NCBI GenBank assembly: GCA_034780895.1
Contig: JAUZTB010000069.1
Location: 20,733,509-20,797,508, forward strand
Reading direction: 5' to 3'
Length of the DNA: 64,000 nt
Source of the DNA: Rhynchobatus australiae
Lineage: Eukaryota
Shown here: positions 18,305 through 63,630 of the stretch, in pieces
Position numbering within the stretch: the first letter of the stretch is position 1
How the letters are laid out: every line of letters begins with the position of its first letter
Notes under the pieces: model-generated
Told to the model about the DNA's origin: nothing
The model's input: the letters and a program-made list of their open reading frames with translations, nothing else
Database searches by the model: none
Position numbers and translations under genes: made by a program

Positions 18305-18400
18305 CCACTCCAGGTGAAAGGTCTCGACCCAAAATGTCAACTGTCCATTTCCCTCCACAGATGCTGACTGACCTGCCGAGTTCCTCCGGCATCTTGTGTG
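18305..18400 (+). mobile_element. Penelope-like terminal repeat remnant with decayed hammerhead motif
   Basis: caggtgaaaggtctcgacccaaaatgtcaactgtccatttccctccacagatgctgactgacctgccgagttcctcc. Confidence 0.75.
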
Positions 18401-18575
18401 CTCTGCCACATGGCTGTTAGCTTTCCAAAAATGGCACCTCACTCCCTGGCTCCACATTGAAATTTCCCATCAAATAGCTTGAATCTGATATCTTTGTGCT
18501 ATAGACACTAAGTAAGCTCATCACAGAAAGTCAGAGCTTATTACAGGTGAAACAAGAAGCCACTTACGATTCCTG

Positions 18576-19033
18576 CAGGTGATACCCTGGGTTACAACAG
18601 TTTGGGTAATGGAAATTCACCCTCACTGAATTCACAAATCACAAACAAAAAATCTGGGAAACAGAATAAAAATTGCTCTTACAAAATCAGTGTGGGAAAA
18701 AAAAGTAACATTTTTTCAACTTGNNNNNNNNNNNNNNNNNNNNNNNNNNNNNNNNNNNNNNNNNNNNNNNNNNNNNNNNNNNNNNNNNNNNNNNNNNNNN
18801 NNNNNNNNNNNNNNNNNNNNNNNGATAGAGGGACGGAGGGATAGAGGCACAGATGGAGGAGATGGATGGATGGAAGGAGTCAAATAAGCTTGAAATCAGT
18901 GTGGGAAAAAAAAGTAACATTTTTTCAACTTGATTTGTTGGTGCATCTGAGGTCATGTGGCTTCGTATTACAGAAGATTGTGATCGAGACCATTTTTAGG
19001 GAATGCAACCCCCCATAATGCGGGGGTTGCCTG
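18576..19033. mobile_element. Probable Tigger/pogo-like non-autonomous DNA transposon (MITE)
   Basis: Right end gggggttgcctg followed by TA, with a subterminal hairpin gcaaccccc/gggggttgc. Left end caggtgataccctgggttac is a decayed inverted counterpart. Contains a gap. Confidence 0.5.
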
Positions 19034-19799
19034 TATTTATTTCCCTCTGGATTTGTTATCCATGGTTCCTTTAACAATGATATTTACTACTAGTTAACCA
19101 CTCCAATACTAAAAAGTGTAACAAGTATAGCATCCCCCCAGAAACTTCTGGCAATCCTGGCCTATGATTGCACAAAATGGAGAAAGAGCTTTGGGACGGC
19201 ATTCAGAACCTCAGGTCCATTCATGAGGACCAAAGCAAAGTCTGGGTAGAAGGGGTGTACCACCTCCCAGACTGCCCACCCTCACAAGCACAGCCAATCT
19301 CACCTTCTCCTCTGCCTGAGTGGAATTCACCCACTCTACCTCTCAATTCCTCACAATCTTTGATTTGTTAATTTTACAATCCCTTAATCTGACTGGTTAA
19401 GGAGCAATGAGTTTGCTTGTCCTTTGCAACAAGGTCCCAGATGCTCCGTTTCTGTTAATGGGACATTATCAACTGACACTTTCAACAAATTGCAGGGCAG
19501 GTTTTCTTTGTTATTAAACATACAAGGGCGAGTCTGGTTGACAGAAGCTGCTGTTCAGTGCTCTGTTTCAGCAAATTATATTACTTCTCTAATCATGCTA
19601 TCAGCATTTTTGAATTTCAGAGATTTTACAGCCAACGCAAGGCAGTAATTTGGGCCAGGAACTGATGATTCTCTCATGGTTAAAATTTGAGCTTAAAATT
19701 AGAATTTAAAATGATTACACCAAGGACTAGCACATTTTGTTTCACTGGGGAGAGAAATTATCCTTTGTTGTTAATATTAAACATGTGCAAGTCAAAAAG

Positions 19800-19938
19800 C
19801 CAAAAAAACTGCAGAGGCTGGAAATCTGAAATAAAAACGTGGGATGCTGGATAGTTTACATCAGTTCCGATGAAGTGCCATCGACCTGAAACTCCTGACC
19901 AGTTGAGTATTTATAGCAAATCCTGTTTATATTTTCCA
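19800..19938. mobile_element. Penelope-like terminal repeat, inverted pair
   Basis: Minus-strand tail (ctgcagaggctggaaatctgaaataaaaac...gatgctgg) abuts the plus-strand cagttccgatgaagtgccatcgacctgaaac. Confidence 0.65.
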
Positions 19939-22127
19939 CAGAGTGTTGGCTGCTGGCTGTACTCATCTCCACACATTTAGAGTCATTAACTTTATGTGCA
20001 AACAATCAGCTGCTGATACTCTCCAATATGCTTAGGACATTTGAACAATGATGAATTCCTCCCTCATTGGTATGTTTTAATTACCACGAACAATAATATT
20101 CTATAAGGCTGAGATGCAATGACATTGGTCCTTTGAATTGCAAAGATAACAAATGGAATCATCTATGGAATGGTTTAATGAAACTATATCTTCATCGTCC
20201 CTCACCATCCAGGACATGCCTTCTTCTCACAAAATTTTTTAAATTTTTAAATTTTATTTACAGTGTGGTAACATGTCCTTCCGACCCAATGAGTCCACGC
20301 CCCCCCAATTTTAAACCCATATTAACCNNNNNNNNNNNNNNNNNNNNNNNNNNNNNNNNNNNNNNNNNNNNNNNNNNNNNNNNNNNNNNNNNNNNNNNNN
20401 NNNNNNNNNNNNNNNNNNNNNNNNNNNNNNNNNATGATATAAGTCAGTGATAATAAATCTGAATCTGATTCTGAATTGGACAAATTGCTCCCAAATACTT
20501 GGAGTGAAACATAAATTGTAGCACTCGGCTTACCTTAATCACATTTATTGTTATTAAAATAGCAGAAATTCTGGATGAACCAGTTATGTACAAAAGCTAG
20601 AATGAACATTTTTGAAAGGCTGAATAGTGAAGCGATGGTTTAAGGAGACAATGTCCCAGACTAGGCAACCACCATTGAAGCGACTATACTCACATTTGAC
20701 TTTGAAAAACACTGTGTATAACTATTTAGCTTGTCTATGGTGTGCATTCCACTTTTCCTAAAACTGGTTGGAGTTAGGCTTCAGCTCCAGCATATCTCTA
20801 ATGTCGGCGACACTTGACAAAAGATGCATTTCACTGTGTGTTTCGTATGTACGTGTGACTAATAAAGATATCCAAACAAGGAGACTACATCTCAAGTCAA
20901 ACTAAAGAATTCTCACACAGAGCAAATCAGGAAGTAAATAGAATGGATTTTAGCGAACTTTTTAAATATTTAACGCACTAAAGATTGGAATGCAGATGTG
21001 AGAGTAACAGAGAAGCTAAAATATCATAAGCAAAGATTATAAGTAAAAGTAGAATTAATTTTATACGCTTATGAAATACTAAACAGATAAAAGTACTCTT
21101 TTAGAGATAATGAAGTTATTTAACATTTATGATGACTTAGTAACTCATTAAAGATTGATTTAAATTTCATGCGATAAGAAGCCATAATATTCCCAGTGAT
21201 AATATCAGAGAAGTTCAGTTGCCATCGATGGAGAAAGAAACAGAGAAAGTGTTTCAGGTTGATAACCTTCCACCAAAACTGATACCTATTCATAGACATT
21301 GAATAAAATAGCATGTTCTGAAAAGTCATCAACCAAAAACATTGATCCCATTTCTCTCACCACAGAAGTTGTCTGACCTTCTCTGATTTTATTCATGAAA
21401 ATATTACGGCTTACAGTATAGGGTTGGTTATGCAGATAAAGCAGGGGTGTAAGAAACTTGACAACTCTTTCAGAAGAGGCACAATGGGTTGAATTCTGTG
21501 CTGCGCAACTTGATCTCATGGTGTAATATCAGTATGTTGGTGAATGATAAACTGGTAAACTAAAGAATAAATACATTTTTACTTGTAAAATGGTGGGCCG
21601 AAGGGCCCGTCTTGTGCTGTATTGTTAAATTGATCAAAATTACAATTGAATACTGCTGCTAATGTGAATTTTAGAAATTCCAATCTTCATTCTTCAGCAC
21701 ATTAATCTTGTGAGAGAATATTGAACTGAAATTTTTTAGCAAAATATCTCAACAGATTCCTTCCTAATAATACCACTGACAAGTGGTTCCAAAGTAAGGA
21801 GAGCTGGAGCTTCTTTATTCCCCCCAGAGGTAAATTCGCTCAAGTACAGTGTACTTCTTTGCTGTGACACTCCACAATGTGACTCTGAAGGATGTTTAAT
21901 AAGTTTCATTCTGCACGTGAAAGTCAAATACCAAGAGGCTTGGCTATCTGCATTTGCAAAATGACCACTTCAAACAGTGCTCAGTTTAGAAATAAGCAGA
22001 CTTGTTTCACAAATTAAAATATGAATTGTCATCCAACTTGAGCATGTTGAAGTACAATCTGTAAGTCATGGTTAAAAACAATGATATTTGCCTAAGAGTG
22101 AGGTTTGGCAACTTGAATCTTCTCTGT

Positions 22128-23430: not shown

Positions 23431-25509
23431 GCAGGTAAGGAGCAAGCTTTTGGGACTGGTCCTGGAGACTGAAGAGTCCCGATGGACATTGAATGAAGCA
23501 GCATGTTGAAGGTTTCCTAGCCACTGCTAACACATTTGGTAATCAATGAATTAATTCATAAAACAAACCTACTGTAAATGTGTTGCAGGCTGGTAGTCTT
23601 GCACATTGTATTTTGCATGATGCCAGGGGCATATTTGTGTAACTTTAACTGCCAAGACTATCATGGCAGGGATCCAGAAACCAACAGATGGTGCATCTTT
23701 TTGACTCACCAGTTAAACAGAAAGAATAGTGAAGCATGGCAGAATCACACATACTTATCCCTTGTTAATGGAGCACTCTGTGTAATGCATTCATCATAAT
23801 ATTTAATTACAGAGTCGTGTACAAAAACCGTTGNNNNNNNNNNNNNNNNNNNNNNNNNNNNNNNNNNNNNNNNNNNNNNNNNNNNNNNNNNNNNNNNNNN
23901 NNNNNNNNNNNNNNNNNNNNNNNNNNNNNNNNNAGAGTCGTTTACAATCACGTTTGAGAACTGACCAATTTTTGATTTTTGTGAATGGGTATAACAGCAG
24001 AGATTGTTTTTTGCTTTGTACCTTTGAAATTAAGTACCTGAGGCAAAAGGAAATGTTTAGTGTCAGCCCAGAAGGGGAGTCTCTGAAATACAGTGCAGGT
24101 GTAGCTTGCAGGGAAGCTGGAAGGGCAAACAGATCAGCCAGAACAATCGATTCCAGGGTGACATTCAGGCTCCAGACTGGAAAACCCGAGAAATATGCTT
24201 TCAAAATTCCCTTCCTTGAGAATTTACAGGAGTCTTGCTCATAGACCACAGGCTGCAGCTTCTGCTTTTCCAACAATTTTAATGAACACGAGTTGAATGA
24301 AGGGCAATGATTCTGTGATTTCCCAACCCATACCCCCTCTGGGTGTTGCTTCACACAGGGAGTGGCCCTTAAATACCAGTTGTTGATGAAACAGTGATTC
24401 ATGCAAGAAGGCCAGTAATTAAAAACATTTTCTGTACAGCCCCATGCTTTTAGGTGAAGGAGAAACCGCTGGCCTTGATTCACTGCACGTACTGTTGTTT
24501 ACCGGCTTAATACCCACCATATTCTCCCTTTACTGTTAATGAACATCACTAACTTTTCTGAGCTAAATAAAACCAGAACAGCAAAGTGTGTTATTAAATA
24601 TTTGGATGCTGTTTTACTATACTCCACAAGATCTGCTCCACAGACCTGTGATCTGTCTGTGGATGTGACTCACACCCTCCTCTTCACATACAAAAGCACA
24701 CCTTCAAATTAAATGCTAGATTGTGAATGTGAAACATTACTATGAGGGAACATCGCACTAATTGTACAAAAGCCTGAGGCTTTTCCAACTGGCTTTCACG
24801 TGAAGGTTCTCACCCACTGTCTGAGTGAGGTGGTAATTCTGTGGGAGGGAGTCAAAATAGAAAGGTGAGTTTATTGGTTTTGGTCTTTTGGATGATTACT
24901 GGCACATCCGGATGAGGGTGAGGAACATTTAAGGTAAATGCACTCTGAGGTGCAACCTGATTTAACTAAGAATGCAATTACTGTACTATGACAGTGGTTG
25001 CTGCAAAGCAGGTTCAGAGAGGAACAGCTGTAATTTAAGTGCCATGAAAAGAAGGTATAATTGCACATGAGGGCTAATTGACTTCAGCCAATGCAAAGAA
25101 GAACAATAAAGACAGGTCCCAGAGACAATTCCTATACATGTCAACAAAGTGCCTTGGGTAGGAAGATGAAAATTGGGTGGGATTCCCAATCCTAATTTCT
25201 ATCAGCAATTCCAGCTGTCAGTGGACTGGGTGAAGACATTGAGAAAGTCAACAATGGGTTTTCTCATGGGTCCTGCTTCATGTTAGAATATGACCATTCA
25301 CTCTGAACATTCCCACGTGAATTAAGGTGACTTTGCAGTCCTACAGCAGGACTTCAAAACTATAGCTTGTCAAGAAACTACATGACCTTGCACGAGGAAA
25401 GAAAACGAAAAGTGACCGAAAGTTCTTGTGGTCAATTTTTTTAAAAATGCAGGTACTTGAACTTGTTAGCCTGAATAATATTTGTTTTGTCCATCCTTCA
25501 TGTACCTTT

Positions 25510-25610
25510 GGAGCAACAAAGAAGATGCTGGAAGAACTCAGTGGGTCAGGCAGTATCTGTCGAGGGAAATGGACGTAGGCATTTCAGGCTGAGATCCTTC
25601 ATCTAGATTG
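25510..25610 (-). mobile_element. Penelope-like terminal repeat remnant
   Basis: Minus strand ctagatgaaggatctcagcctgaaatg...ccatttccctcgacagatactgcctgacccactgagttcttccagcat. Confidence 0.75.
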
Positions 25611-29240: not shown

Positions 29241-29261
29241 GAACATAGTCTACACCTTTAG

Positions 29262-32900: not shown

Positions 32901-33284
32901 CTTTGTTCCCATCATTGTACAAATTCCACTTCTGACTGAGAAAGAGCTCGCAGTCAACTAAGAAAGTATATTTTCAGACCTTATCCTGGAAGGAGCGGAT
33001 GCACTGGCAGTCTTCAGACAAGTTACATTACTGAAATATTCAGTACCATAACATTCCCAAAAGCTTCAGGTGTATTGCTTTTGCATTCTGTTGCGGGAAT
33101 GCTTTGTAAATCTTAAGGAACTGTGGGACCATAATCAGTTGGCAAATCCAAGAGAATATAAAAGGCCATCAAATTAGCAGTCCATAAAACATGGACATAG
33201 GTTCAACCTGTTAATGGGAGATATCTGGATATGCCCGAACTCTGCCAATGGGACTATTAAGTGAACACATGAAACCTGTTATGA

Positions 33285-33470
33285 ATAGAGAAAATGCTGG
33301 AAACCCTCAGCAGGACAGGCAGCATTTGTGGAAAGCAAAGCAGAGTTAATGTTCCAGGTCGAAGACCCTTCATTGGAACCGGGAATGAGAGAATACAAGT
33401 TAGTGTTAAATTGCAGAGAGCACAGGGGACAAAAGGATAGAACAAAGAGAATCGATCTGACAGATATGTT
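33285..33470 (-). mobile_element. Penelope-like terminal repeat remnant
   Basis: Minus strand ggttccaatgaagggtcttcgacctggaacattaactctg...aaatgctgcctgtcctgctgagggtttccagcatttt. Confidence 0.75.
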
Positions 33471-33604
33471 GAGCTGAGGGACAGGATGTGAAATATATGT
33501 GCCCCTCAGCTTTAAACTAGCAGTGACTGAAAGGGGTTTCTGACGCTGATTAAAATGCCAAAAGCAGATAAGTTCCTTACTTATTTAGCTTTATTTTAAG
33601 ACTT

Positions 33605-33930: not shown

Positions 33931-35789
33931 CTTTGTCTTCTAGTGCTGGAGAGTAATAACTAAATTTAAAGCTGCAACAAAAAGGACTTAATAAAGCAGG
34001 GAAGCAGACTATGAAATTATAAATGTAAGCAAATTAAAAAAAGTTAGTTAACACATTTTCTTTAAAGAACCACAATCTTTCGAAGGAGCTTTGCTGTTGC
34101 AAAAAGCTAAAAAGAATGCATCTGACTAAAAGTACATATCCAATTAAAAATATATATTTAGCTCTGAATTGTTTTTAAATATCTCTCATTATCAGGACCA
34201 TTTTAAAACTGCTCAAAAAGGACTTTGTTGGTGGTCAAAGTTCAAATATCAGAAGTCCATCAGGGCTTTCTGGGGATGGGGCCTCAAGATTTGCCGCCAG
34301 ACACCCAGGCACTGCTCGTGGTCCACTCCTACTCAGAGGACTGTCCTCAGGAACGAAGGGCCAGCTTGTCTGGCTTTCGATATCTTGAATGGGTCAGTGT
34401 GGATGTTCATCATGGGCCATGATTGCAGGCAACCAGGAAGATCCAGCCCAAAAGATTTTCAAAGATTTGGTGCCATTGCTGGACTTTCTCAACTTCTGGG
34501 AATACATCCTCCATGTACGCTCGTTTCCAGGCATCTTCAGAGGCTCAAGATGTTTAGCAGAACAGGAAGAGTCAGTGAACTTAGGAAATCTGCAGCTGCA
34601 GAAGTGGTCCTGCTGCTGTGTTTCAGTAGTATCATTGCATCCTTGTAAACAGTCCAAGTAACCCTGTCGGTATTTCCGACATCTCCCACTCTCCTGCCCA
34701 CAAAGCCTGAACAGATTGGAATTTACAAATGATTCCTTATTATGGGCTTTAGATCACACTATTTTGGCAATTGGAACATTACGGTATGATGCACAGAAGG
34801 CAAATATAGGCTTAATGTTGTTATTTATTGTCAGGCAGTCTAGCTACTAATACGTCTTGAAATATTCCTCTTAATTCTTGACAGTGTATAGTTAACGTTC
34901 CAAATGAAGCCATTAAACACACTTGTTGCATGGGATTTGTGCTGTGTGTTGAGGATTACACATGATGTATTAGACTGCTGTCCTACAGCTGTCTTCAGTG
35001 TTGTGTGGAAACTCTTCCAGGACATATTCAACTCTCTGCTTTGAGCTTCTTCAGCTTCTGACTGCGTGTCAATAAAACTCTTGGGTTCTAACCACCACTT
35101 AAAAAATCTCCCACCAGACATTAACATTCCCGAATGACGAGGGGAGCATTTCATAGATAAATCTGACATCTGGTTTTACTTCTGTGGGTCATCACTCTCG
35201 CATTCAGTAACAAGTTATTTTGCACTGTTCCTCTGGGTATCCTGAGGCCCACTTTTCCGACATTTAACATCAATAATGTTGGTAGTTCTCGACTTCACTA
35301 AAAATATAGCAGTTCTCAGCAGCTTATTTAGATTGGAAGTACCCTTTATAGATAACAATTCCTCTATGTGAATCAGTTTCAATGGCCTAAAGAGGTTGGG
35401 CAGGAAGTTCTCAATTTTTGTTTTTCTTCTTGATGTTTCCTTACTTTTATTCTTCTAGCCATCTCTGTGAAATAGATGTGAAGGCTCTGAAAAGGATGCA
35501 GTAACAGTTTACTGGAATGTCTCCACGGATTAGGGACTGCAATGTTAGACTGGGTTATTCTCCTGAGAAGAAAAAAGGCTGCCATGGAGGTTTGGTTAGC
35601 AAAACAACTCATGCACATTGATCCATTTGGTCTCACTTCTTCTTGGTCTGATGGTAGGCGCACTTCCAGTATGAAGAACCACTGGTACAATCTCCAGAAT
35701 TTCCATGTTGGTACACCATGAACAGGAACCATTGCATGAAAGAGAGACACAATTTCCCAAGTCTTCTCAAACCTCTGAATTCTGCGCAG

Positions 35790-35955
35790 AGAGAAAGTTT
35801 GTGTTTCAGGTCTTTCATCAGAACTTACATGAGTGTTCCGTTGCAAGGTGATTAGTCTGAAGCACATCACTCACTTTCTTTCCAAGCTGCGTGAACCGCT
35901 GAGCAGTTCAGCATTTTGCATTTTTACTTCATACTACCAGAGTCTGCAGTATTTA
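35790..35955. mobile_element. Penelope-like terminal repeat, decayed inverted pair
   Basis: gtttcaggtctttcatcagaac (minus-strand CTGATGA...GAAA) followed by plus-strand ccgctgagcagttcagcattttgcatttttacttca...ctgcagta. Confidence 0.5.
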
Positions 35956-38144
35956 AGTTTACCACATATTGTTTTGTAAGAAAGCAAATTTGTTCCAGGA
36001 AGTACAAGTCCCAAGTATAATCATTCCCTCATGGAATGAATATCAAAGGCACTGATGCAACCATATGGCATGTTTCACACTACTGACCTTGGACATGTTC
36101 AGCACCACCTGTTTGTGCCGCGAAATGCTGTCTTTCAGTGCGTGATGCCAAGAGTGGTATGTGTCACCAGAAGACAATCAAACAGCAATCCTCTGCAACC
36201 TCATGCTTATTAGAATCTGCAGGCAAGTTNNNNNNNNNNAAGTTATGTTAAGTTCTTAAATTGCTTTCTTTCATTTTTTCTGCCAGTTCTCTAGATTTTC
36301 CATTGATCTCAGTTTAAACTGCTCAACCCGATTCCCAATTCAGATTAATGATAAATGATTATCATCTTTTTAAAGTTTTAGATATTTTCAGGGTCATATC
36401 CAGAAAATACCCAGAGTTCTTCATGAAGAACCCTTACTTCATCGACTGGAATCGATCACATGCTATCACTTGCTTCTGAAGCAAAACAAACATGTATATT
36501 ATGCAAGCAAAAATTGGTTTTATCAGAGTAAAACTAATGAATGAATAATATGCAATGTAAAACTGGGCATCACACAACATGCAATTCTCATTTTGTGCAT
36601 AAAATAATAAAGTTACATACATATAACACATAATATAAACAAGAACAGAAGTTTTTTTGCTGGTGGTTCAATGTGTCACAAATCAGTGTTGTTTTCTGGC
36701 TATAAAGTTGACACTAAATCACCGAGTCAAACAACTTGATGTGGAAATATATGGAAACATAATGCAGAAGCAAAAGATTGGCAGAAAGTGACAACTATCA
36801 TAAATAAATTACCAGAACAGCCTATACACAGAAGTCAGCATTCTTAGTGTCAAATATGAGTAGATGTTTTGCAATTGTGAATGCATAATGTCATAAATAC
36901 AATATTTCTAACAATATAACCAAATAACACATGCCTGCAAAGTGCACCATAGACACCTATCTGTTGCTGAGGTGACCTTTTATTGTTTTGAGAAATACTC
37001 TGTGCAATTTTGGGCTTTAACCCTTAACATGGCACTGCTATCAATACTACAAATTAAAAATTCATTATGGGACAATTGGTTCTTTGTCTTCATTTCACTG
37101 TCTTTTCTGTAAAGGAATCTCACATGAATTGCTTTCCATTACTTATCTTCCTCAGTGATCTTGGGCATTCTACAAAAGTGATGCTGTTGTTTTCTAATAA
37201 TAAAGAAATGGCAGACAGATAGACCAAAGATTAACAGTAAATCATAAGTCACTGGCTGAATTTCCAGAATGAATTCTCTTGCCATTTAATTTTCAAGCAG
37301 GCTTTTCACAGTGCTTCTGAGGTTACCGCAGACAAACAGGAGTCTCCAGTGGCAATTCAGTCCCCATCACTTACAGCAGCGAAGAATACCACTTGGACGA
37401 TGAAACCTATGCTGATACTTCAGATAAAATGGTATTGTAACCTTATAGTTACGATTGTAATGTTATACCCCTGTCCTTCATCTGTATACCTGGTTGCCTT
37501 TGATTCTAATACTTATAAATTGCCTTATTTTGTCTCCTTTTTGTGGCATCATCACATGCCTGGGTAATGTTGGTCACCAGTTTTTCATCTGTTTATGTCC
37601 AAGCTCTCATTAGTTACAAGCGTTCAATCTTGGTAATTGTTTCTGACTCACTCTGATGCAGAATAGGGGAAAGATTACCACTTCGAGAGAGCCACTGAAG
37701 AGTGAGATTCCTTACCGAAGTATTTCTATTTCACTTCCTTGACATATTCAACATGCTATAAAGGAGGTGTCCCATCAAAGAGGGAACACAAAATCTCTCA
37801 TTCTGGCAGCCTTCAGATGGATTGATTTACTGCGCCCAGCCCCAAACCAACATATAAATTATACGTTCTTCATATAATTTAAAATTAAGTGTAACTATGG
37901 CACTAAAATCCAATCCTGACATTTGGGCGGAGAGCGTTGCCTCTCCAGTTTTGATCAATTTGCCTTGTTTGCTTTTCAACTCGANNNNNNNNNNNNNNNN
38001 NNNNNNNNNNNNNNNNNNNNNNNNNNNNNNNNNNNATGTGTGGGGAAAGAAACTCTTTCTCTGTCCTGCTGAGTATTTGCTTTCCCAAAGTACCAGCCAG
38101 GAAGGCAGAGGTACTTCTGTCAAAAAAATTAAAAGAAGTAAAAA

Positions 38145-38325
38145 GAGAAAATGCTGGAAACGCTGTATCTGTGGAGGTAGGGCCATAGTAAACACTAAAG
38201 ATGAAGGGTCTCTGAATGGAAATATCAACTGTGTTTCTCTTTCTTTTGATGCTACCTGATCTGTTGAGTGTTTTTAGCATTTTCTGTTTTCATTTCAAAT
38301 TTCCAACATCTGCAATTTTTAGGCT
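38145..38325. mobile_element. Penelope-like terminal repeat, inverted pair
   Basis: Short minus arm aaatgctggaaacgc...atctgtggag, then plus-strand agatgaagggtctctgaatggaaatatcaactgtgtttctc...gatgctacctgatctgttgagt...atttccaacatctgca. Confidence 0.7.
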
Positions 38326-39260
38326 TTTCAAATAAAGGCAGAACCCAGACAAAATTTGTTTGAAATTTTTAAAAAATCCCATTTTTCACACTCCCACTGT
38401 ATCCTTGACGATCAACATGAAAAGCCAAGTATCATTTCTCATCTCTGTTCTTTTTTTTGGGGGGGGGGGGGAGAGGGTGGCTGGGGCACTGGGAACTGGT
38501 CTGAAGTCACCTCTCACCCAAAAGAGGGCAGAAATAAGAAACATCGCTGAGGATTTCCATGCCCGGTCAGCTGCGAAGCAGCAGTGAAGCCATCAGCACG
38601 TGCAAGGGATGGTTTCGTGATCGACCCGAAATGCTGAGTGTGCCATTCAGTCAGTTGCTTTTCCAAGAATGCTGACCAGTGCTAGTTGCAGCCCCAGCTT
38701 ACTGAACGAAAGCAGGCAGCCATCAGCTCAAATGCCCATTGCTTTATATCAGTACAAAGCTCCTTCATTCTTACAACTTGATGTTGTTTTGAATGTTAAA
38801 AAAATATACATCTTATTCTGTGAAATTTAAATATAAACTCAAAGAACAAAATCTAAAACTAATCTAACAAAAATACTGTATGTAAAAGAATTATAAAATT
38901 AACTTGAGGCACTGCAGAGGAAACTTTAAATGTGACCAAAATTAAGTTATTTGGGAAAAGTAAATCAACACAAGAAGGTATAGTAATGTAGGGGAAGCCA
39001 ACGTGTTGGCCGATCCCAATCATTCCCCGTGCATGCTTCTGTGTCGTGTGATGCTGCAGCTAATTTGGTGCTTGATACTCCTTTGAAAAGTAATTTTCCC
39101 AACAGACCTCATAAAAAGCACATTCTGAAAAGGCAGGCCCGTGAAACTATCGTCTGCTGAGCAAAGAATTGCAGCTGATTTGCATGCAACTTGGAAATCT
39201 CTCAGAAAGTAGTTCAGTGAGATGAAAATTTTACATCCAGAGGAGTAGAGAACCGACAGA

Positions 39261-39884
39261 GACACAGGAGACTGCAGATGCTGGAGTCTGGAGCAACAAA
39301 TAATCTGCTGGAAGAACTGAACGAGTTGAGCAGAATCTGTGGGAGGAAAGGGACTGTCAAAGTTTCGGGCCGAAACCCTGCATCAGGACTGAGAGTGGAG
39401 AGGCGAGATGGCCAGTTCTGGTTCCCACTGCAACTCCCCTCTCCCCTAATGGTTCCCATTCTCACCTCCTTTATTGATAAGGATCCAGCACAGGGAGCAC
39501 TTCGTGTTTCTGAATATCTCCCTCCAGCAACCGTCTCCAATCTTCACACTCCACTCTCCCAACCTGCTCCAGCTGTTATTTTGGTTCCTTTTTCTTCTCT
39601 CTCTCTCGGTTTGCCTCCATCTATCATTCACCTGCCACTGTCTCCCAACTCCACCTCATCTCCCCTCCCCTACCTGACACAACCTGCCTGTCATCTAAAA
39701 CCCCTCGTCAGTCCACCAATCACCTCAGACTCCTTCCTCACCACCCCCCTTCTCCTCTTTACACCGGCAATCTCGGCTCTCCACTCAGTCTTTGATGCAG
39801 GGTTTCCACCTGAAATGTCAACTGTTCAATTCCTCCCACCGATGCTGCTCGACCCGCTGAGTTTCTCCAGCAGATTATTTGTTG
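39261..39884. mobile_element. Penelope-like insertion: inverted terminal repeat, pyrimidine-rich body, terminal repeat
   Basis: Arm 39261-39415 (minus) and arm 39764-39884 (plus) are homologous (cagtc.tgatgcagggtttc..cc.gaaa...ccagcagattatttgttg). Confidence 0.85.
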
Positions 39885-40164
39885 GCAGAGAACCAATATC
39901 TGATTAAATATCTACCACATCACATGGACGATATACTGTGGCTAATCATTTGGTAACCAATGATAAAATGACCAGCTGTCATCAGCATTTCTCTGCATGC
40001 ATATTCCAGTGCAAAATCCCCAAGCTCATGTCTGTGATTCAGTGCACCTCCTTAGGCTGCGCTGCTTATAACCTTCTCTAGTGAATTCAAGAGAAATCAT
40101 TTGAACTGACATGAAGATCAGGTATTTCTGAACTAATTCCATTTATACTCTCTTCTACAATTAC

Positions 40165-40348
40165 CTTGGACCAAGTTCGTCTTCGCTGCGCCACCCAAAG
40201 TCTCCAAACTTTTCATAATGAGAGTTGTAGTGGTGTATCACTCGATATACCATGGGGGAAGAGATCTCCATCAGCATGTTGTAGGCTGTTTGCTGCTCTT
40301 TCCCACTGGTGTAGCCATTAAATAGACTGTAGATTATCTCCGCTATTT
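40165..40348 (-). CDS. ASTN2: Astrotactin-2, penultimate coding exon (184 bp)
   Basis: Encodes (E)[60 protein letters not shown](R). [23 protein letters not shown] is ASTN2-type rather than ASTN1. Acceptor ttttgcAG at 40350-40349, donor GTAA at 40164. G+AA completes the Glu codon from the previous exon. Confidence 0.97.
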
Positions 40349-40589
40349 CTGCAAAAACCATAAGAGAGTTAGAAACAGCTTTGAGGTCCTGCAGTAAAAA
40401 GTGAACAAACAAAGTAAAAATGCAACTAAAATGTTAACAATTGGAATAATAATGTCTTCATCCATCTTGGCTGTGAGGGTTGCTGATTGGTTAATTTGGC
40501 AATGACATGTCGTGACATATTTTGACAAGGAATATTTCATGTGCAGCTACACATCTTTACAGTATTTTGTTTGGCCTTCGATAAAATTT

Positions 40590-40870: not shown

Positions 40871-40904
40871 ATTTAGAGTGTTTTATTGTCCTAAAGCCAC
40901 CATG

Positions 40905-41215
40905 GGAACACCGGAAGCACTCAGCCGGTGAGGTAACATCTGAGGAAAAGAGGAACAGAATTAAGATTTCAAGTCAAAGACCCTTCTTCAGAACTTAGAA
41001 AGAGAGAAAAACAAATCAGTTTTGAGTTGCAGGTAAGTTGGAGGGATGGATGGATAGGAAAGAAGAAATATCTGCGATAACTTATTTCTCTCTCTTTCTG
41101 GTTCTGTTGATGGGTTTCCAACATGAAACCTTGACTCTGTTTCTCTCTCCACAGATGCTGCCTAGCCTACTGAGTATTTCCTGCTTTTTCTGTTGTATTT
41201 CAGATTTACAGCAAC
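40905..41215. mobile_element. Penelope-like terminal repeat, inverted pair; minus arm has an intact hammerhead core
   Basis: Minus arm AGTT-CTGAAGA-A-GGGTC-TTT-GACTT-GAAA-TC-TT-AATT (40995-40959); plus arm ggttctgttgatgggtttccaacatgaaaccttgactctg...agatgctgcctagcctactgagtattt. Confidence 0.8.
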
Positions 41216-42494
41216 TGTATATATATTTTATCCACTGCAGGAATGCAAGACTTTCTTTCTCTCAATGTTTTTATGGTTATGCTTGCACATTTCCATCAAG
41301 TATCAATAGTGGGGGAATAAAATGGTCTTAACCATCTATTAAGCTAATGGGTGCCCCTGTTCCTATTGAATTAACAGGGCTTGGTAATGTCAGGGTACAT
41401 ATCATTCTTGAGTAAGGTATGGAAAATACCCTCTTTGTGGCCCACTGTTACCCTTCATTATTGATAGTAAATGAATGAATATTTAAAATCCCTCACTATC
41501 ATAAAATAAAAACAGTTTCACAATCTAAAGCAAGCACTATGAAGTTCAGAAATTAAAAAAAATTGCAAAGGGTTCAGAAACCGTTTGGCTGCTCCAGTAA
41601 TTAGTTTTCACAATTTCTGCACTGTTTAGGCTCAAATCCTCCTCATTTCTGTCAGACCTTGCTTTCATGAGCAATGGGGGGAAATGCTTACTTACCATAA
41701 AAATCAGTGTATAACTCACAGTGGTATAGAAGTTGCTGTCCACTCTTTTAGCTGCTTCAAAAAATACTCATGAAGTGAAATTATGCATTTTTTTTTATTG
41801 TGCATCGTCCAGTTAACACCATCTGAATTCCAAGCCAAACTTGCAAAACCACTGCCCTTGGTTTTAATTTATCTACATTAGCTCTATGAACTCCGATATA
41901 GATTGAGAATGGGGGCACTTCAATTTTGGGTCAAATAGTAAAAGGCTGGAAAATTAGGTTGTGCAGAACCTTGCAATGTTGGAAGAAAATGTGAAATGGT
42001 TTGTAGCTGTTACCTTTAAGGCTGATACAAAATCAAAACAGTGAGAATGGTGAGGGAGTATCAAGGCTCAGCAGTCCATCAGTTTCATGCGATGTGGTTA
42101 ATTTCTTTCACAGCCTCTTTAGATAAGTGTCTTTAAGACAGCAAAGAATGGAGCTGACAAATGACTGGCTGCCCTCGTCTGAAAATACCTAAATGTAACC
42201 GGCTGGCTTAAATCAAATAACCTCACAAATCAGTCTGTAAAACTGTTAGATAAGATTTTATTGCATAGATTTTAAGTCAAAGAATTAGTCATAATGAAGA
42301 GTTACAGTGCAGCAATTATTGTGTCAGTATTTATCCAGGCTCACCAATTTTCAACTTCAGTGGATATTTTCTTTCAGGAAAAGCTTCTGAATGAATCTAA
42401 TTTGTAACCTTTGTCTTTCAATTAATTTATAAACAGAAGGGAGCAATTAAGGTAAAAGAGGAGTTCTGTTTCACCAAACATCTCTTGCTTCCAT

Positions 42495-45541: not shown

Positions 45542-45899
45542 CTGAGACAACAACAGAGCACTTGGCAGGTAAGAGATCCACTCAAAGAAAGAAACTTCAA
45601 CATGCAGGTCTTAATGTAACTTTATTGTTAGTATGTACTGTACAGCAATATACTATACTGTACAGCAAAACGTGCTGTGATCTCCATTGCACCATAATCA
45701 TGCTTACCAGTTTCATAATAATTGTCTTAAAAGAACAACACTGGCAAATTGTCCAGCAATGTGGTTTCAGTTGGGAAGTTTGCTGCAACCACACACTTCT
45801 TCAGTTTTGGTGCCATTTCTGAAGGTTACTAATGCTGTTTTTACTAATAGATGATTAAACAAGTTGTTTGTGGCTACAAAAATGCTTCAGCTCTACCTC

Positions 45900-46220
45900 C
45901 CTCCCTTTATTCCATGTTCCACCTTCCTCTGCTGTCAGATTCCATCATCTTCGGCCCTTTGTTACTTCCACCTATCACCTCCCAGCTTCTGACACCATTC
46001 CCACACTCTCCCTCCCTCATCTGCCTATCACCCTCCCTCCCTCCCTCGCCTGAATCCTACCAGCTCTTGCTCCACCCTTTCCCTCCACCTTTTTTTGCTG
46101 GCCATCTTCCCTCTTCCTTTCAGTCCAGATGAAGGGTCTCAACCCAAAATGTCAACTGTCCATTTCCCTCCATGGATGTTGCCTGACCTGCTGAGTTTCT
46201 CCGATGTGTTGTTTTGCTGT
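45900..46220 (+). mobile_element. Penelope-like 3' region and terminal repeat with decayed hammerhead
   Basis: Pyrimidine-rich tract, then cagtccagatgaagggtctcaacccaaaatgtcaactgtccatttccctccatggatgttgcctgacctgctgagtttctcc. Confidence 0.8.
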
Positions 46221-47200
46221 GTCTCAGCTCTACTTAGATGAGATGACATGTTTAGTGCATCTGATTTTAGCTTTCACGTTTCTAAAGCCACAGGAACACA
46301 AGAAAATAGGAGCAGGAGTTGGCCACTTTGCCCCTAAAGCCTGCCCCACCATTCAACATGTTCAAGACTGATCTATACTGGCCTCAACTCTTCAGTGCCA
46401 GTTCCCCATAACCCTCAATTCCTCAATCTTTCAAATATTTATCTCTCTTCACCTTAAATGCATCACATGATGTACTAAACTAACTTTATTCTTCAGAACA
46501 AGGTGTAAAATGAGAGGTTTTGGAATGAAAATATCTGAAAGCTATTNNNNNNNNNNNNNNNNNNNNNNNNNNNNNNNNNNNNNNNNNNNNNNNNNNNNNN
46601 NNNNNNNNNNNNNNNNNNNNNNNNNNNNNNNNNNNNNNNNNNNNNNNNNNNNNNNNNNNNNNNNNNNNNNNNNNNNNNNNNNNNNNNNNNNNNNNNNNNN
46701 NNNNNNNNNNNNNNNNNNNNNNNNNNNNNNNNNNNNNNNNNNNNNNNNNNNNNNNNNNNNNNNNNNNNNNNNNNNNNNNNNNNNNNNNNNNNNNNNNNNN
46801 NNNNNNNNNNNNNNNNNNNNNNNNNNNNNNNNNNNNNNNNNNNNNNNNNNNNNNNNNNNNNNNNNNNNNNNNNNNNNNNNNNNNNNNNNNNNNNNNNNNN
46901 NNNNNNNNNNNNNNNNNNNNNNNNNNNNNNNNNNNNNNNNNNNNNNNNNNNNNNNNNNNNNNNNNNNNNNNNNNNNNNNNNNNNNNNNNNNNNNNNNNNN
47001 NNNNNNNNNNNNNNNNNNNNNNNNNNNNNNNNNNNNNNNNNNNNNNNNNNNNNNNNNNNNNNNNNNNNNNNNNNNNNNNNNNNNNNNNNNNNNNNNNNNN
47101 NNNNNNNNNNNNNNNNNNNNNNNNNNNNNNNNNNNNNNNNNNNNNNNNNNNNNNNNNNNNNNNNNNNNNNNNNNNNNNNNACAGAGAAAACAAGCAGGCT

Positions 47201-48775: not shown

Positions 48776-48794
48776 TCAATATCATAAGACAGGA

Positions 48795-51399: not shown

Positions 51400-51615
51400 A
51401 CTACCCGCCCGCCCATACCATCTGTCTTGGTCTCCATCCTATCACAGGCATCTTCCTTGTTCTCTCCACCCCTCCTCTGCATCTTAAATAATATTTGTCT
51501 TATTTTTCGAGTTCTGATGGGAAGTCTTTGACCTGAATTATTAACTCTGTTTCTCTCTTCATGGATGTTGCCTGACCCGATGAGTATTTCCGGGATTCTT
51601 TGTATTTTCACTTTA
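51400..51615 (+). mobile_element. Penelope-like terminal repeat remnant
   Basis: gagttctgatgggaagtctttgacctgaattattaactctgtttctctcttcatggatgttgcctgacccgatgagtatttcc. Confidence 0.7.
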
Positions 51616-58420: not shown

Positions 58421-58421
58421 T

Positions 58422-58481
58422 TAATAACTGGCGTAAGCAAATTACAAAGGATAATAACTGGTGTATGCAAATTACTAAGGA
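58422..58481. repeat. 30-bp tandem duplication
   Basis: taataactggcgtaagcaaattacaaagga followed by taataactggtgtatgcaaattactaagga. Confidence 0.85.
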
Positions 58482-59249
58482 CAAAGGATACCAACAGTGG
58501 AACATTTATGCTCCAAACCCACAGCACTTTTTGGCCTTGAGCTTCATGGAGATAGGCTCAGCAACTCGGTTCTTGTTCAGGCACCTCAGCAGTGAAGACC
58601 ATTATCTTTTGGGGTTGAGGGAAGAGGGGTTGAGACAGTTGATCATAGAGTGGTACAGCATGGAAANNNNNNNNNNNNNNNNNNNNNNNNNNNNNNNNNN
58701 NNNNNNNNNNNNNNNNNNNNNNNNNNNNNNNNNNNNNNNNNNNNNNNNNNNNNNNNNNNNNNNNNNNNNNNNNNNNNNNNNNNNNNNNNNNNNNNNNNNN
58801 NNNNNNNNNNNNNNNNNNNNNNNNNNNNNNNNNNNNNNNNNNNNNNNNNNNNNNNNNNNNNNNNNNNNNNNNNNNNNNNNNNNNNNNNNNNNNNNNNNNN
58901 NNNNNNNNNNNNNNNNNNNNNNNNNNNNNNNNNNNNNNNNNNNNNNNNNNNNNNNNNNNNNNNNNNNNNNNNNNNNNNNNNNNNNNNNNNNNNNNNNNNN
59001 NNNNNNNNNNNNNNNNNNNNNNNNNNNNNNNNNNNNNNNNNNNNNNNNNNNNNNAGTTTAATTGGCCCAAATATGTAATGGGTGGTAAAGTGATGGGCGT
59101 CGATGGAAATATGGGGAGAGTGAGAGGAGATTAGTGTAGGATTAGTGTAAGTGGGTGCTTGATGATCGGCCTGGACCCAGTGGACCGAAGGGCCTGCTCC
59201 TGCACCGTATGACCATTGGGGAAGCAGTTGTTTTGTTATGGAGGGAACA

Positions 59250-60027: not shown

Positions 60028-60258
60028 TGCACGGTAGTGTAGCGGTTAGCGTGACGCTATTACAGCGCCAGCAATTGGCGTCGCTGTCTGTAAGGAGTTT
60101 GGATGTTCTGCCCGTGTCTGCGTGGGTTTCCTCCGGGTGCTCTGGTTTCCTCCCACATTCCAAATATGGGTTTTAACGTGGGTTTAAAATCGGCAGCACG
60201 GACTCATTGGGCTGGAAGGGCCTGTTACTATGCTGTAAATAAAAATTTAAAATTTAAT
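60028..60258 (+). mobile_element. Young V-SINE with internal deletions
   Basis: gcacggtagtgtagcggttagcgtgacgctattacagcgccagc, V-domain, and tail gggctggaagggcctgttactatgctgtaaataaaaatttaaaatttaa. Confidence 0.9.
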
Positions 60259-61863
60259 AGGACACTTCAATTTCTTTGAAAAGTACAACATTTTTGAAAA
60301 TCTTGAACTTCCCATCTGGATCACCAAGTCCTGAATTTCCTTTCATTGTCAGACCTGTGGACCCATCAATGTGCAATGTGTTGGTCTGGCTATGTTACTT
60401 CACTGGGTGACGAAAGTGTGTGTTCACAGTTGTTGACTAGTTTAAGGCAAATAAGTCCTTGCCCTCCTGTGGTAACAACATGAAGATTTTGAACACTGAA
60501 CCTCACTTACAAGACATTGGTACACTGAATAACCTGAACCAAAACGCGATAAAAAAAGAAAGAGAAAATCGATGACAAGTCCTTGCGATATGTTGCATGT
60601 TCAGAGCTCAGTTTTATTTGAGACAGGTTAATTTTCCTGTGCAACGGGGCACATATTAGCAACGGGATTCCTTCGGCTAGTAAAAAAACTCTTGGGATGC
60701 ATGGTATCAGCCGTAAAATGGCCTTTCACATTCTGGTGACTGTACCGGCCTTCGGATTGGAGGAACTGCTAGGTTTCCTGGTACATCGTGACCAGGGCAG
60801 ATATACAAAAAGAAATATCCAGCAGATAATTTTTGCAAGATTTTGCAAACCTATCGAGTGCTGTCTCCTTGGACAAAGAGAATTGTTTGATTGAGTGGAA
60901 TGAAATTATCTTCTTTTCACCTTGAGATAATTATGGTTTGGTCCCAAAATTGTCAAATGGGATTGACATTGTTGAGACAGAGCTATGGGTCTCAAACCTA
61001 TGTTCTAAAATGTTATCAAGGTTTATTTTTCTAAGACAGTACACGAGACAGGTTTTATTTTATCATTGCTTTTGTCTGGCCTGGTATAAACAAATAGAAG
61101 GCAATTATTTTCAAGGTTTTAATAGCTTCTCTCTTTTAATAGTTGGAAATATGCAGAGAGTTGGTCTCTCAATAGGTCATTTCTGACTGCTGCAGTCCAG
61201 AACCAAAATATCTACTCACATTGGTGGCTACAAAATAAGTACTCAATATACATTATATGGTCCAATTTTAACATCCCAATGGCACTGTGTGTGTGGAGGG
61301 GTAGGAATCTACCAGTTTATAGGAAACAGAGAGATGTGAGCAGTTTTTAAATCAGAACACCCAATTAGCATATTCTTTCAGGGTTTGCCAACAATTACAT
61401 GTGCAAACATGAGGTCAAGACACACAACTTGGTTTCAGCTCCATTCTTTCAAGGGATATTGCAAATATGGCACATGACTTGCTCTGTCCTTAGCTTCACA
61501 ATCCAATCCAGTTGACAGGAAAGTGAAGAGAATAAAATGGAATTAATGCAGGGTGAATGTAACTGAGTGCTTAATTTTACACGGATTTGGTGGGTTGAAG
61601 AACGTGTTTTCATGCTGTATGACTCTATAACTGTCTATTGCAATGGAGAAACATCCATGGTACAGGGAAGAGCAAAACTGTCAAGGCAACAATTATTTTT
61701 AAATCTGGAAGTTGGAAGTCAGAATGGAAAATTGACCCNNNNNNNNNNNNNNNNNNNNNNNNNNNNNNNNNNNNNNNNNNNNNNNNNNNNNNNNNNNNNN
61801 NNNNNNNNNNNNNNNNNNNNNNNNNNNNNNNNNNNNNNCCCAGCTTCACTCAGTTAGGGAAGG

Positions 61864-62104
61864 TTACCTGAAATTGTTAAATTCAATGTTAAATCCCAAG
61901 GGCTGCAATGTATCCAGTCAGAAGATGGGGTGCTGTTCCTTGAATTTATGTTGAGCATCATTGAAACAATGTGGTAGACTGTAGACTGAGAAGTCAGGAT
62001 TGTTCTGGATGGAGAATTAAAGTCACAGGCAACAGAAAGCTCAAGGGTCACTCTTGTAGTTTGATTGAAGGTGTCCTGTAAAATGGTCACTCAATCCACA
62101 TCTA
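61864..62104 (-). mobile_element. Penelope-like element GIY-YIG endonuclease C-terminus, pseudogenized
   Basis: Manual translation across frameshifts gives GLSDHFTGHLQS...ELSVACDFNSPS...HCFNDAQHKFKEQHPIF*LDTLQPLGFNIEFNNFR*, matching the PLE end motif (DRF.EHL...VA.HFN...EQ.LIF.L.TLQP.G.N.EF). Confidence 0.75.
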
Positions 62105-63529
62105 ATCTTATCTTGTTTAATTCCAGTAGTAATAAAGATGAGTTTATCACAAACAAATGTATCACTTTGAACCAACGTAAGATATCCATTCAGCTATAGA
62201 TAAATGTGAGGCGATTTCAGAGCAACCCCACTCTTGCACAGGATGTTCTGCTGTTGTCTTATTAGATGGAATAGGCATAAAATTATTGACTTGGAGTGAA
62301 CTTTAACTGTTAACTCACGATCATTTGTCAAAAAACAGGTCTTGTACAATCAGAACTTTCTTTTAATAACAATGAAAACCAAAATTACTGTTGAATAACT
62401 TGTGTGGCCTGAAAAACTAATTTTACAAGTATGGAGTCTCCTTTCCCCTGAGAAAAATTTAGAAGTTGCATGTTAAAAAATAAAACCTTTAATAAATGTG
62501 TTTTGCAACATCATTTTCTTTTTTACTTAAGGCACATCTCCCCATCTGCATATGTTTAGCTATATGTTTCCTTATTTTTACTTGCTGCTATGCTAACCGA
62601 GAGGATTCTTTACTCTGACTGATTGATCAGTCTCTCTGCTGCCAGTCCCAGCAGATCTCCTGTAGAAGCTTCAGAATTTAAAATGACATTGGAAAAGAAG
62701 TAGTTTGTGCATGGAACCTATTAAGTATTCGAGCGTGTCTTTTCTCGAGGTGAAGAGTGAGAAGTGCTGCTTAATTTCTGACCACAGAATGAATGCTTAA
62801 TGCAGAGAAAAACTTCAGCAGCAACAGGAACAATCCATGGTTGAGCCAGCTTCTGCTTTATCCAGATTCTCACTGATTTTACTTTGGTGTCATTTCTTGC
62901 CTCGCCACTTTTGCCATCACCCTGGTTCTGCTTACCAGTAGACCACTTCTGTCTCACCCAGAATGTTCTACTTATGGAAAGTTCAAAGTATATTCCTTAT
63001 TTTAGCCTTGCTGGATATAACAGAGAAATACTTGAAACATTACATTCTCTTCACGACTTGAGTTGCATTTTGCTGCAGTACCTTCCTTCACTCTTTTCTG
63101 CTTGATATTATTGGGTAGGTGCTGATACGAGAGTAGATGTAGTAGTATCACTGTTAATTACTTAACCATACACTTCGTCTGGAAAATGTTAGATCCAACT
63201 GCATAAACAGTTTCAGTTTGGATTTAAGGAAAGTTATAATAAAGCTAAAAATACTGGAAGCACTGGAAATAGCAGGTCAGAAAGTACAGAGAAACTCAAG
63301 ATTTTTAGGGAGAGCTTGCTGACGAAAGATCAATCTGCCTTTAATCAGTTCCAGATGCTAACTCACCTGCTCGGCCATTTCAGCAGTTTCTATCACTTGT
63401 TTCCTGTCTTCAGTAACTTTTTTTTTAATATTTGTGCCACAAAGAAACTTTGAATTTTTGGTTACTTCTGAAAAAAGAACCTCCAGCTCACACGAGAAAA
63501 ATGAACGAGTGGAGCAGTAAATGAGTGAC

Positions 63530-63630
63530 GGAAAGCAACAGCCTGCAGGAGGAGCTCAGCGGATCGAGCAGCGTCTGTGGGGGGATAGGAATCGTTGACG
63601 TTTTGTGTCAAGACTGTGCATCAGGCTGAG
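63530..63630 (-). mobile_element. Penelope-like terminal repeat remnant
   Basis: Minus strand cagcctgatgcacagtcttgacacaaaacgtcaac...acagacgctgctcgatccgctgagctcctcc. Confidence 0.75.

What the first reader, a model, noticed from the sequence alone, without database searches (positions are those of the whole stretch)
18305..63630. Dispersed family of hammerhead-ribozyme-like repeats throughout the ASTN2 introns
Seen: about a dozen loci (near 18310, 19865, 25590, 33360, 35815, 38200, 39370, 39800, 40975, 41110, 46130, 51515, 63610) converge on a by-eye consensus AGTY-CTGAWGA-A-GGGTC-NN-GACCC-GAAA-CG-TY-RACT. This is a type I hammerhead layout: stem I AGTY/RACT, core CUGANGA, stem II GGGUC/GACCC, GAAA, a 1-bp stem III with a palindromic ACGU loop, and a UH cleavage site. 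Established: Penelope-like element (PLE) terminal repeats carry such minimal hammerheads, thought to cleave as dimers. Inference: this is an abundant, mostly non-coding PLE- or retrozyme-like family. The phenomenon is known in general; whether this lineage's family is described cannot be judged from the sequence.
Basis: partly seen in the sequence, partly recalled or inferred. Interest (0 to 1): 0.7.

Follow-up and report, generated by a model that had tools for sequence, protein, structure and literature searches.

The report
Decayed Penelope ends with hammerhead motifs
These repeats are the worn tail ends of a Penelope-type jumping gene that litters this shark-or-ray genome and carries a known miniature hammerhead-ribozyme motif; the copies in the ASTN2 introns are at ordinary density and likely inert, and the one twist is that three of six subfamilies spread with a changed catalytic core that likely weakens cutting.

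Summary
The repeat and its minimal type I hammerhead layout are real, but the family is not non-coding by origin and has no special tie to ASTN2. It is the 3' end (pseudo-LTR) of a Neptune-type Penelope-like retrotransposon. Longer copies elsewhere in this genome run reverse transcriptase, GIY-YIG endonuclease, UTR, hammerhead. The window holds 14 hits against 14.3 expected from 100 other stretches; extrapolated total 330,000-420,000. The 13 listed loci are about 11 insertions, several being head-to-head fold-backs. No window copy is a complete minimal hammerhead: one keeps the canonical core and stems but has lost the ACGU palindrome. Such motifs are described for Penelope-like elements (PMC4209133), and this scan noted them before in this and other shark/ray genomes. 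The extra: subfamilies defined without the core carry fixed A9C (20 of 21) or U4A (13 of 15), with 576 and 615 exact genome matches against 737 canonical and 73/92 for control changes. This fits in-vitro work showing that hammerhead cleavage is dispensable for insertion (PMC11167929). Cleavage is untested.

The parts
18304..18410 (+). PLE 3'-end stump, U4A subfamily (S5); core further decayed (CAGGUGA, G12 to A)
19793..19935 (.). Old fold-back: minus arm with tail (19793-19851), plus arm with a decayed, internally deleted hammerhead (core CCGAUGA)
21215..21382 (.).
25503..25610 (-). PLE 3'-end stump, U4A subfamily; core decayed
33275..33463 (-). PLE 3' end of the oldest subfamily (S1) with a short stretch of 3' UTR; core decayed (CCAAUGA, A13 to G)
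35770..35950 (.). Old fold-back: minus arm with CUGAUGA core but deleted stem II (35821), plus arm with tail; ends approximate
38135..38320 (.). Old fold-back: short minus arm, plus arm (38199-38313) starting inside the core, with tail
39255..39886 (.). Fold-back of an A9C subfamily (S3): short minus arm with tail, long plus arm (~470 nt with 3' UTR) without tail; flanked by an 8-nt direct repeat (39247-39254, 39887-39894); folds into a long hairpin in the ASTN2-sense RNA
40891..41229 (.). Fold-back of S1: minus arm holds the only canonical core in the window (40991; helix III not palindromic), plus arm with tail
45897..46223 (+). 5'-truncated copy of the U4A subfamily with ~220 nt of pyrimidine-rich 3' UTR, hammerhead region 46121-46158 (G12 to A), flanked by a 10-nt direct repeat (45887-45896, 46224-46233)
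51425..51610 (+). PLE 3' end of S1; core decayed
61861..62098 (-). Relic of the C-terminal part of the GIY-YIG endonuclease of the same element; what follows it lies under N
   Evidence: (E 2e-5)
63533..63640 (-). PLE 3'-end stump, A9C subfamily (S3); stem II and G12 decayed
3170..3310 (-). Host context: ASTN2 exon, C-terminal hairpin domain (PF18577)
40161..40352 (-). Host context: ASTN2 exon, annexin-like domain (PF18411)

Best explanation
The repeats are the 3' ends of 5'-truncated copies of a Neptune-type Penelope-like retrotransposon, each carrying the element's minimal type I hammerhead motif; the copies in this window are decayed and likely inert passengers in ASTN2 introns. Shown: order RT, GIY-YIG, pyrimidine-rich UTR, hammerhead, ~60-nt end, optional tail; variable 5' truncation; frequent inverted arm at the 5' junction; six subfamilies 7-18% diverged from their own majority sequence. 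Inferred from published PLE work: the element's protein nicks DNA and reverse-transcribes from one of two internal start sites near the RNA 3' end (giving tailed and tail-less ends), usually stopping early, and often writes a second, inverted short arm. In the active master the hammerhead would cleave after H17 only as a dimer through the ACGU palindrome and probably with help from the element's protein. Cleavage was likely not needed for most mobilisation, because subfamilies with A9C or U4A cores spread to tens of thousands of copies. After insertion, CpG decay (G12 sits in a CpG) and fold-back pairing would silence the motif.
For: 20 of 27 loci anchored on the endonuclease tail have the repeat downstream on the same strand. 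Single loci hold RT, EN and the repeat in order: L064, L077, L086, L089, L095, L096, L099, L100; 9 of 20 newly extended RT loci also do, the rest having gaps or truncations. In the unselected set, 9 of 82 copies still have the EN C-terminus upstream, spread over five of six subfamilies. The RT fragment hits PF00078 (E 1e-5, below the curated cut-off); its nearest proteins are from Mobula and Chiloscyllium (71%, 67%) and relatives carry RT + GIY-YIG. The linker has CX4CxxC and the EN a CxxC plus His residues, the Neptune/Nematis marks in PMC8557442 (passages). 34 of 49 close pairs are head-to-head and 25 of 34 have the tail on exactly one arm (P=0.003), as drawn in that paper. The layout matches the min-HHR consensus of PMC4209133 (text parts 1-2, supplement parts 1-2). 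The free positions N7 and H17 vary between subfamilies and the closing pair of stem I switches C-G/U-A (24 and 15 of 64 rows). CpG sites mismatch 41% against 9-15% elsewhere. PMC11167929 (parts 1-2): catalytic mutants do not affect insertion in vitro, cleavage needs the protein, two RT start sites define the tail.
Against: No intact full-length ORF or full 5' pLTR was found; the best RT hits are broken and the assembly is gappy (only 150 candidates scored). Pfam did not detect GIY-YIG on four endonuclease-region fragments from this genome. Covariation is thin: one compensatory event at subfamily level; RNAalifold predicted no pairs; hammerhead columns are not significantly less variable between subfamilies than downstream ones (8 of 29 against 32 of 67, P=0.075). 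Single-copy folding z-scores are not significant (7 of 7). Neptune versus Nematis was not tested by phylogeny. Core bases mismatch slightly less than distal ones in the copies (8.8% against 11.6%, P=0.03), which I read as ascertainment but which is also what weak selection would give.
Confidence: 0.9

Rival explanations
1. An independent non-autonomous family (non-LTR retrozyme or SINE-like unit) that copies itself as a short RNA, using the PLE protein in trans.
For: Most copies are short: many start at or near the front of the hammerhead (zero upstream homology in many copies). One natural tandem pair of complete motifs exists (L173:1994-2103). Retrozymes derived from PLE ends are described, including in one chondrichthyan genome (bioRxiv 10.64898/2026.07.22.740005, parts 1-3).
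Against: 5' ends are graded from 0 to over 800 nt and run into the ORF. No tandem array in the window; only 4 same-strand neighbour pairs covering the hammerhead among 204 hits. The retrozyme definition in that preprint needs tandem units with complete motifs.
Confidence: 0.07
2. Intronic hammerheads kept by the host to cut or process ASTN2 pre-mRNA.
For: The copies lie in ASTN2 introns, about half on the transcribed (minus) strand; one sense copy keeps a canonical core (40991). Core bases are slightly better kept than distal ones.
Against: Density equals the genome average; no strand bias; no complete motif in the window; the two best sense copies sit in fold-backs, and the one folded (39255-39886) pairs its two arms into a long hairpin (z -3.5).
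Confidence: 0.02
3. The motif is a hairpin signal for the element's protein and only resembles a hammerhead; it never cleaved in this lineage.
For: Predicted monomer fold is a rod in which G5-A6-U7-G8 pairs with C15.2-G16.2-U16.1-H17; three subfamilies have altered cores; no Rfam match; no pile-up of read ends in RNA runs of a related species (such libraries rarely show ends).
Against: Three subfamilies have the full published consensus, the extra base after A9 and the ACGU palindrome, at the position where PLEs carry hammerheads; the Acropora Neptune motif in PMC4209133 Fig. S3 has the same build.
Confidence: 0.08

Closest known systems
Minimal hammerheads (min-HHR) in pLTRs of metazoan PLEs (Cervera and de la Pena 2014, PMC4209133; read: text parts 1-2, supplement PDF parts 1-2 of 3)
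   Same: Type I topology, CUGANGA plus one extra base, G10.1 opening stem II, GAAA, 4-nt palindromic helix III without loop, UH, short stem I, single copies from truncated elements, pairs on opposite strands; the Acropora digitifera Neptune motif is built alike.
   Different: No cartilaginous fish among the 56 listed motifs and none with U4A or A9C (only C3U/G8A variants). Copy number here is far above the 4,000-9,000 given for coelacanth and Xenopus, though theirs counted intact motifs only.
Neptune clade of C-terminal EN+ Penelope-like elements (Craig et al. 2021, PMC8557442; read: passages)
   Same: RT followed by GIY-YIG, CX2-5CxxC linker, CCHH-type motif, heavy 5' truncation, inverted 5'-truncated arm, tail at one end only.
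   Different: No intact full-length copy found; clade not tested by tree against named references. Two window insertions show 8- and 10-nt flanking direct repeats (chance 11% and 1%).
Poseidon element of Anolis (Frangieh et al. 2024, PMC11167929; read: parts 1-2 of 4)
   Same: pLTR hammerhead; two end points separated by a tail; cleavage apparently dispensable for insertion.
   Different: Other clade; there dispensability was shown in vitro with engineered mutants, here it is inferred from natural subfamilies with altered cores.
Non-LTR retrozymes of animals (bioRxiv 10.64898/2026.07.22.740005; read: parts 1-3 of 5, supplements closed)
   Same: Type I hammerhead derived from PLE ends; reported from one chondrichthyan genome.
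   Different: Retrozymes are tandem units with complete motifs; these copies are dispersed, truncated or inverted. Their supplement may list this family's motif; I could not see it.

Membership tests
EN+ Penelope-like element | [quoted passage not shown] | tested here: met
   Collinear tblastn pieces of P0016 (RT + PF01541) then the repeat in single loci; all copies are broken, so the single ORF is seen in pieces
EN+ Penelope-like element | 5' truncation, inverted 5'-truncated arm, optional tail at one end | tested here: met
EN+ Penelope-like element | Partial tandem forming a 5' pLTR in front of a full-length ORF | tested here: inconclusive
   L086 has a partial same-strand end upstream of the ORF; no complete element recovered
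Neptune clade | CX2-5CxxC linker between RT and EN | tested here: met
   L035 fragment shows CX4CxxC aligned with relatives
Neptune clade | CCHH motif in the GIY-YIG domain | tested here: met
   CxxC inside the GIY-YIG core and downstream His residues in L035, aligned with relatives; read by eye
Neptune clade | RT phylogeny grouping with named Neptune (not Nematis) elements | not testable with these tools
   no named PLE reference set at hand
Minimal type I hammerhead (min-HHR) | Core CUGANGA ... GAAA ... UH | tested here: met
   Met for subfamilies S1, S2, S6 (737 exact genome matches to one pattern, control 0)
Minimal type I hammerhead (min-HHR) | Core CUGANGA in subfamilies S3, S4 (A9C) and S5 (U4A) | tested here: not met
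   these are core variants, not filed as canonical members
Minimal type I hammerhead (min-HHR) | Stems I and II flanking the core, with covariation | tested here: inconclusive
   79.6% of cells paired against 23-41% for slid controls; one subfamily-level compensatory change; stem I only 3 bp in S2-S4; RNAalifold found nothing
Minimal type I hammerhead (min-HHR) | Palindromic helix III (15.1-16.1) allowing dimers | tested here: met
   ACGU in five subfamily majorities, CpG-decayed in S1; lost in both window copies that pass the core-and-stems scan
Minimal type I hammerhead (min-HHR) | Self-cleavage after H17 as a dimer | not testable with these tools
   needs a bench assay
Non-LTR retrozyme | Tandem units each with a complete hammerhead | tested here: not met
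   none in the window; one pair among all fetched loci
Rfam hammerhead families | Match to a curated covariance model | tested here: not met

The most novel reading that the evidence does not exclude
Two separate lineages of this Penelope-like element spread through the genome with a catalytically crippled hammerhead: A9C (two successive subfamilies, stem I cut to 3 bp, at least one RT+EN-bearing copy, L285) and U4A. By extrapolation they left about 42,000 and 29,000 core-covering copies. This would be natural, in-genome evidence that PLE hammerheads are kept as a folding or protein-binding signal and that self-cleavage is not needed for retrotransposition; alternatively A9C (or a C inserted after G8) and U4A are new natural hammerhead cores that work in dimers with protein help.
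Probability: 0.45. Interest if true: 0.45.

Novelty: new member of a known kind. Interest (0 to 1): 0.24.

Why it matters
The main finding is ordinary: hammerhead-bearing PLE ends are described across animals, and these intronic copies are decayed. It matters a little for annotation, since the repeat's last ~127 nt alone cover about 2% of sampled sequence, Rfam misses it, and some shark and ray gene models have absorbed its RT. The core-variant subfamilies give a direct test of an open question, what PLE hammerheads are for: three natural cores from one element can be compared side by side, and a natural tandem dimer is at hand (L173).

Tried and rejected
Rfam scans: no hammerhead match in the window or in 9 selected loci. 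Two apparently long ORFs (1395, 1290 aa) were runs of N. My first ORF-linkage test returned zero through a wrong tblastn option and was redone with a profile. My first structural scan used a lazy pattern that missed the 40991 copy; it was redone exhaustively. Eight metagenome loci of distant relatives showed no minimal hammerhead; most are partial or broken, so this is no evidence either way. RNAalifold gave no consensus structure; energy folding of monomers and dimers does not give the hammerhead fold, as expected for a core of non-canonical contacts. Sequencing runs: no RNA holder listed for this species. Three RNA runs of a related species carry the repeat in about 0.1-0.2% of reads on both strands with no pile-up of ends; no verdict on cleavage. 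U4A is also frequent in runs of two other coded organisms; A9C could not be judged there. Papers not held: Lunse et al. 2017 on small PLE hammerhead variants and a mutational review; the first may already describe these variants. Paper searches for hammerhead + Penelope + shark/skate/Chondrichthyes/elasmobranch and for A9C/U4A found no description of this family or these cores in the held library; Dfam and Repbase could not be searched. Rejected: ASTN2-specific enrichment, tandem retrozyme array.
Full report
1. Observation. A profile rebuilt from window and genome copies gives 14 hits at E<0.01 in the window and none in reversed controls. The loci resolve into about 12 insertions: 39370/39800 and 40975/41110 are the arms of head-to-head fold-backs, 19865, 35815 and 38200 have inverted arms too, and a fold-back at 21215-21382 was missed. 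The host gene is ASTN2 on the minus strand, with exons at 3170-3310 and 40161-40352 and more beyond the right edge. Rfam sees no hammerhead in the window or in 9 loci picked for their core.

2. Abundance. I took 100 stretches of 10 kb at round coordinates on large contigs, without looking at them first (788,813 non-N bases). They hold 190 hits (150 at 30 bits or more), which predicts 14.3 for the window against 14 seen. Extrapolation gives 330,000-420,000 copies; this is rough, as 21% of the sample is N and small contigs were not sampled. There is no ASTN2 enrichment.

3. What the repeat belongs to. The 30 nearest genome copies of the 46110-46220 copy share upstream sequence of variable length, and several reach the end of a broken ORF. 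Anchoring on that ORF end, 20 of 27 full-length loci have the repeat downstream on the same strand. Further upstream lies a reverse transcriptase (PF00078, E 1e-5, under the cut-off) whose nearest proteins come from Mobula and Chiloscyllium and whose relatives carry RT plus GIY-YIG. Single loci show RT, endonuclease, a UTR of roughly 300-550 nt and the repeat in order. Pfam did not call GIY-YIG on four fragments from this genome; the call rests on alignment to relatives, which also shows the CX4CxxC linker and CxxC/His motif that PMC8557442 gives for Neptune and Nematis (passages). In the unselected set, 9 of 82 copies still have the endonuclease end upstream. No intact ORF was found. 34 of 49 close pairs are head-to-head; 68 of 204 hits lie in such pairs and 25 of 34 pairs have the tail on one arm only, the arrangement described in that paper. 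Two window insertions have flanking direct repeats of 10 and 8 nt (chance 1% and 11%).

4. The hammerhead. The layout is the min-HHR of PMC4209133: stem I, CUGANGA, one extra A, 4-bp stem II, GAA, A15.1-C-G-U16.1 palindrome, H17. Clustering 258 copies on downstream sequence alone gives six subfamilies. N7 and H17, the free positions, vary among them, and the closing pair of stem I switches between C-G and U-A. That is one compensatory event; the hammerhead is not significantly more constant between subfamilies than the downstream part (8 of 29 against 32 of 67 columns, P=0.075; two of the 8 are CpG-decay artefacts), and RNAalifold finds nothing. Copies are decayed: non-CpG divergence 7-18%, CpG sites 41%, G12 changed to A in 37%. 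In the 100 stretches, 9 sites pass a canonical core-and-stems scan and 3 also keep the palindrome (reversed control 1 and 0). In the window one copy passes with a canonical core (40991) and one with A9C (39386); neither keeps the palindrome. The 39255-39886 fold-back pairs its arms in ASTN2-sense RNA (z -3.5). Core bases mismatch a little less than distal ones (70 of 799 against 276 of 2388, P=0.03); copies had to align across the core to be counted, so I read this as ascertainment.

5. Core variants. A9C marks subfamilies S3 and S4 (20 of 21 copies against 2 of 61 elsewhere) and U4A marks S5 (13 of 15 against 6 of 67). Exact genome matches: canonical 737, A9C 576, U4A 615; controls U4C+U4G 92 and A9G+A9U 73. 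The A9C pattern and its control allow one more degenerate base than the canonical pattern. So these changes were fixed in master elements. S3+S4 are 19 and S5 13 of 74 sampled core-covering copies, by extrapolation about 42,000 and 29,000. S3 and S4 have only 3 bp of stem I, and L285 is an RT+EN-bearing fold-back with the A9C core. None of the 56 motifs listed in PMC4209133 Fig. S3 has these changes. PMC9901934 (passages) reports low activity for single mutants of the CUGA turn; PMC3088659 (passages) notes that a U4C variant is weak in vitro yet suffices in a viroid. I found no paper on the effect of A9C. A9C could equally be a C inserted after G8.

6. Mechanism. Shown: anatomy, truncation, fold-backs, subfamilies, decay. 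Inferred from PMC11167929 (parts 1-2) and PMC8557442: nicking by the GIY-YIG domain, reverse transcription from two internal start sites that give tailed and tail-less ends, early termination, an inverted second arm. Inferred from PMC4209133 and PMC6765202 (passages): weak dimer cleavage through the palindrome. In Anolis the ribozyme needs the protein and its catalytic mutants still insert; the success of A9C and U4A lineages fits that. Whether those lineages used their own protein or one in trans is not shown.

7. Prior notes and novelty. The scan has 18 earlier findings with these words in at least 12 genomes, three in this genome, and two that note altered cores in other shark or ray genomes, one of them A6C. 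I reached the PLE reading and saw the variant cores before these look-ups; they are not support. In the held library I found no description of this family in cartilaginous fishes, but Lunse et al. 2017, Dfam, Repbase and the retrozyme preprint's supplement were not available and may cover it.

8. Verdict. Real, correctly guessed as PLE-linked, ordinary in kind: a new member of a known kind, interest 0.24. The best remaining lead is the pair of core-variant lineages and the natural tandem dimer at L173 as a ready test substrate.

Noticed in passing
L173:1994-2103 (+) = G000:C1:2828230-2828339: Two identical, structurally complete hammerheads (core CUGAAGA, ACGU palindrome) 76 nt apart on one strand; the only such pair among all loci fetched. 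Natural dimer candidate.
   Followed up: partly
G000:C75:9122220 and 9122351; G000:C68:29944342 and 29944492: Same-strand motif pairs 131 and 150 nt apart sharing the same core change; local tandem duplications.
   Followed up: no
L285 = G000:C11:47853900-47859400: Fold-back with RT, endonuclease and A9C hammerhead on the long arm and an inverted arm about 2 kb upstream.
   Followed up: partly
window 45887-45896/46224-46233 and 39247-39254/39887-39894: 10- and 8-nt direct repeats flanking two insertions, like target-site duplications; not surveyed genome-wide.
   Followed up: partly
window 61861-62098 (-): Relic of the GIY-YIG C-terminus, next to a run of N.
   Followed up: partly
element 3' end, e.g. 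window 46177-46208 (+): A 7-bp hairpin downstream of the hammerhead (82.8% of cells paired) in the best-kept part of the repeat; the tail repeats its 3' strand and could pair with the same 5' strand. Possible protein-binding or RT-start signal.
   Followed up: partly
proteins P0041, P0061: Ray gene models named as host proteins (a divergent kinase and a chitinase-domain protein isoform) contain this element's RT; annotation artefacts or exonised copies.
   Followed up: no
window 5437-7267, 12831-12990, 18000-18296, 33603-33932, 44524-44827, 58134-59196, 60072-60257, 61510-61575: A second abundant interspersed repeat family on both strands (families D2, D3, D6, D7, D9, D12), SINE- or LINE-end-like by eye.
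   Followed up: no
window 29425-29732 and 51777-52224: Inverted pair about 90% alike, 22 kb apart; likely two young copies of another element.
   Followed up: no
window 18684-18723/18893-18932 and 33692-33751/33843-33902: Near-identical sequence on both sides of 100-N gaps; likely assembly overlap artefacts.
   Followed up: no
G000:C76:59412693-59475070: Second astrotactin locus (FN3 exons) without hits to the two ASTN2-type domains; likely ASTN1.
   Followed up: no
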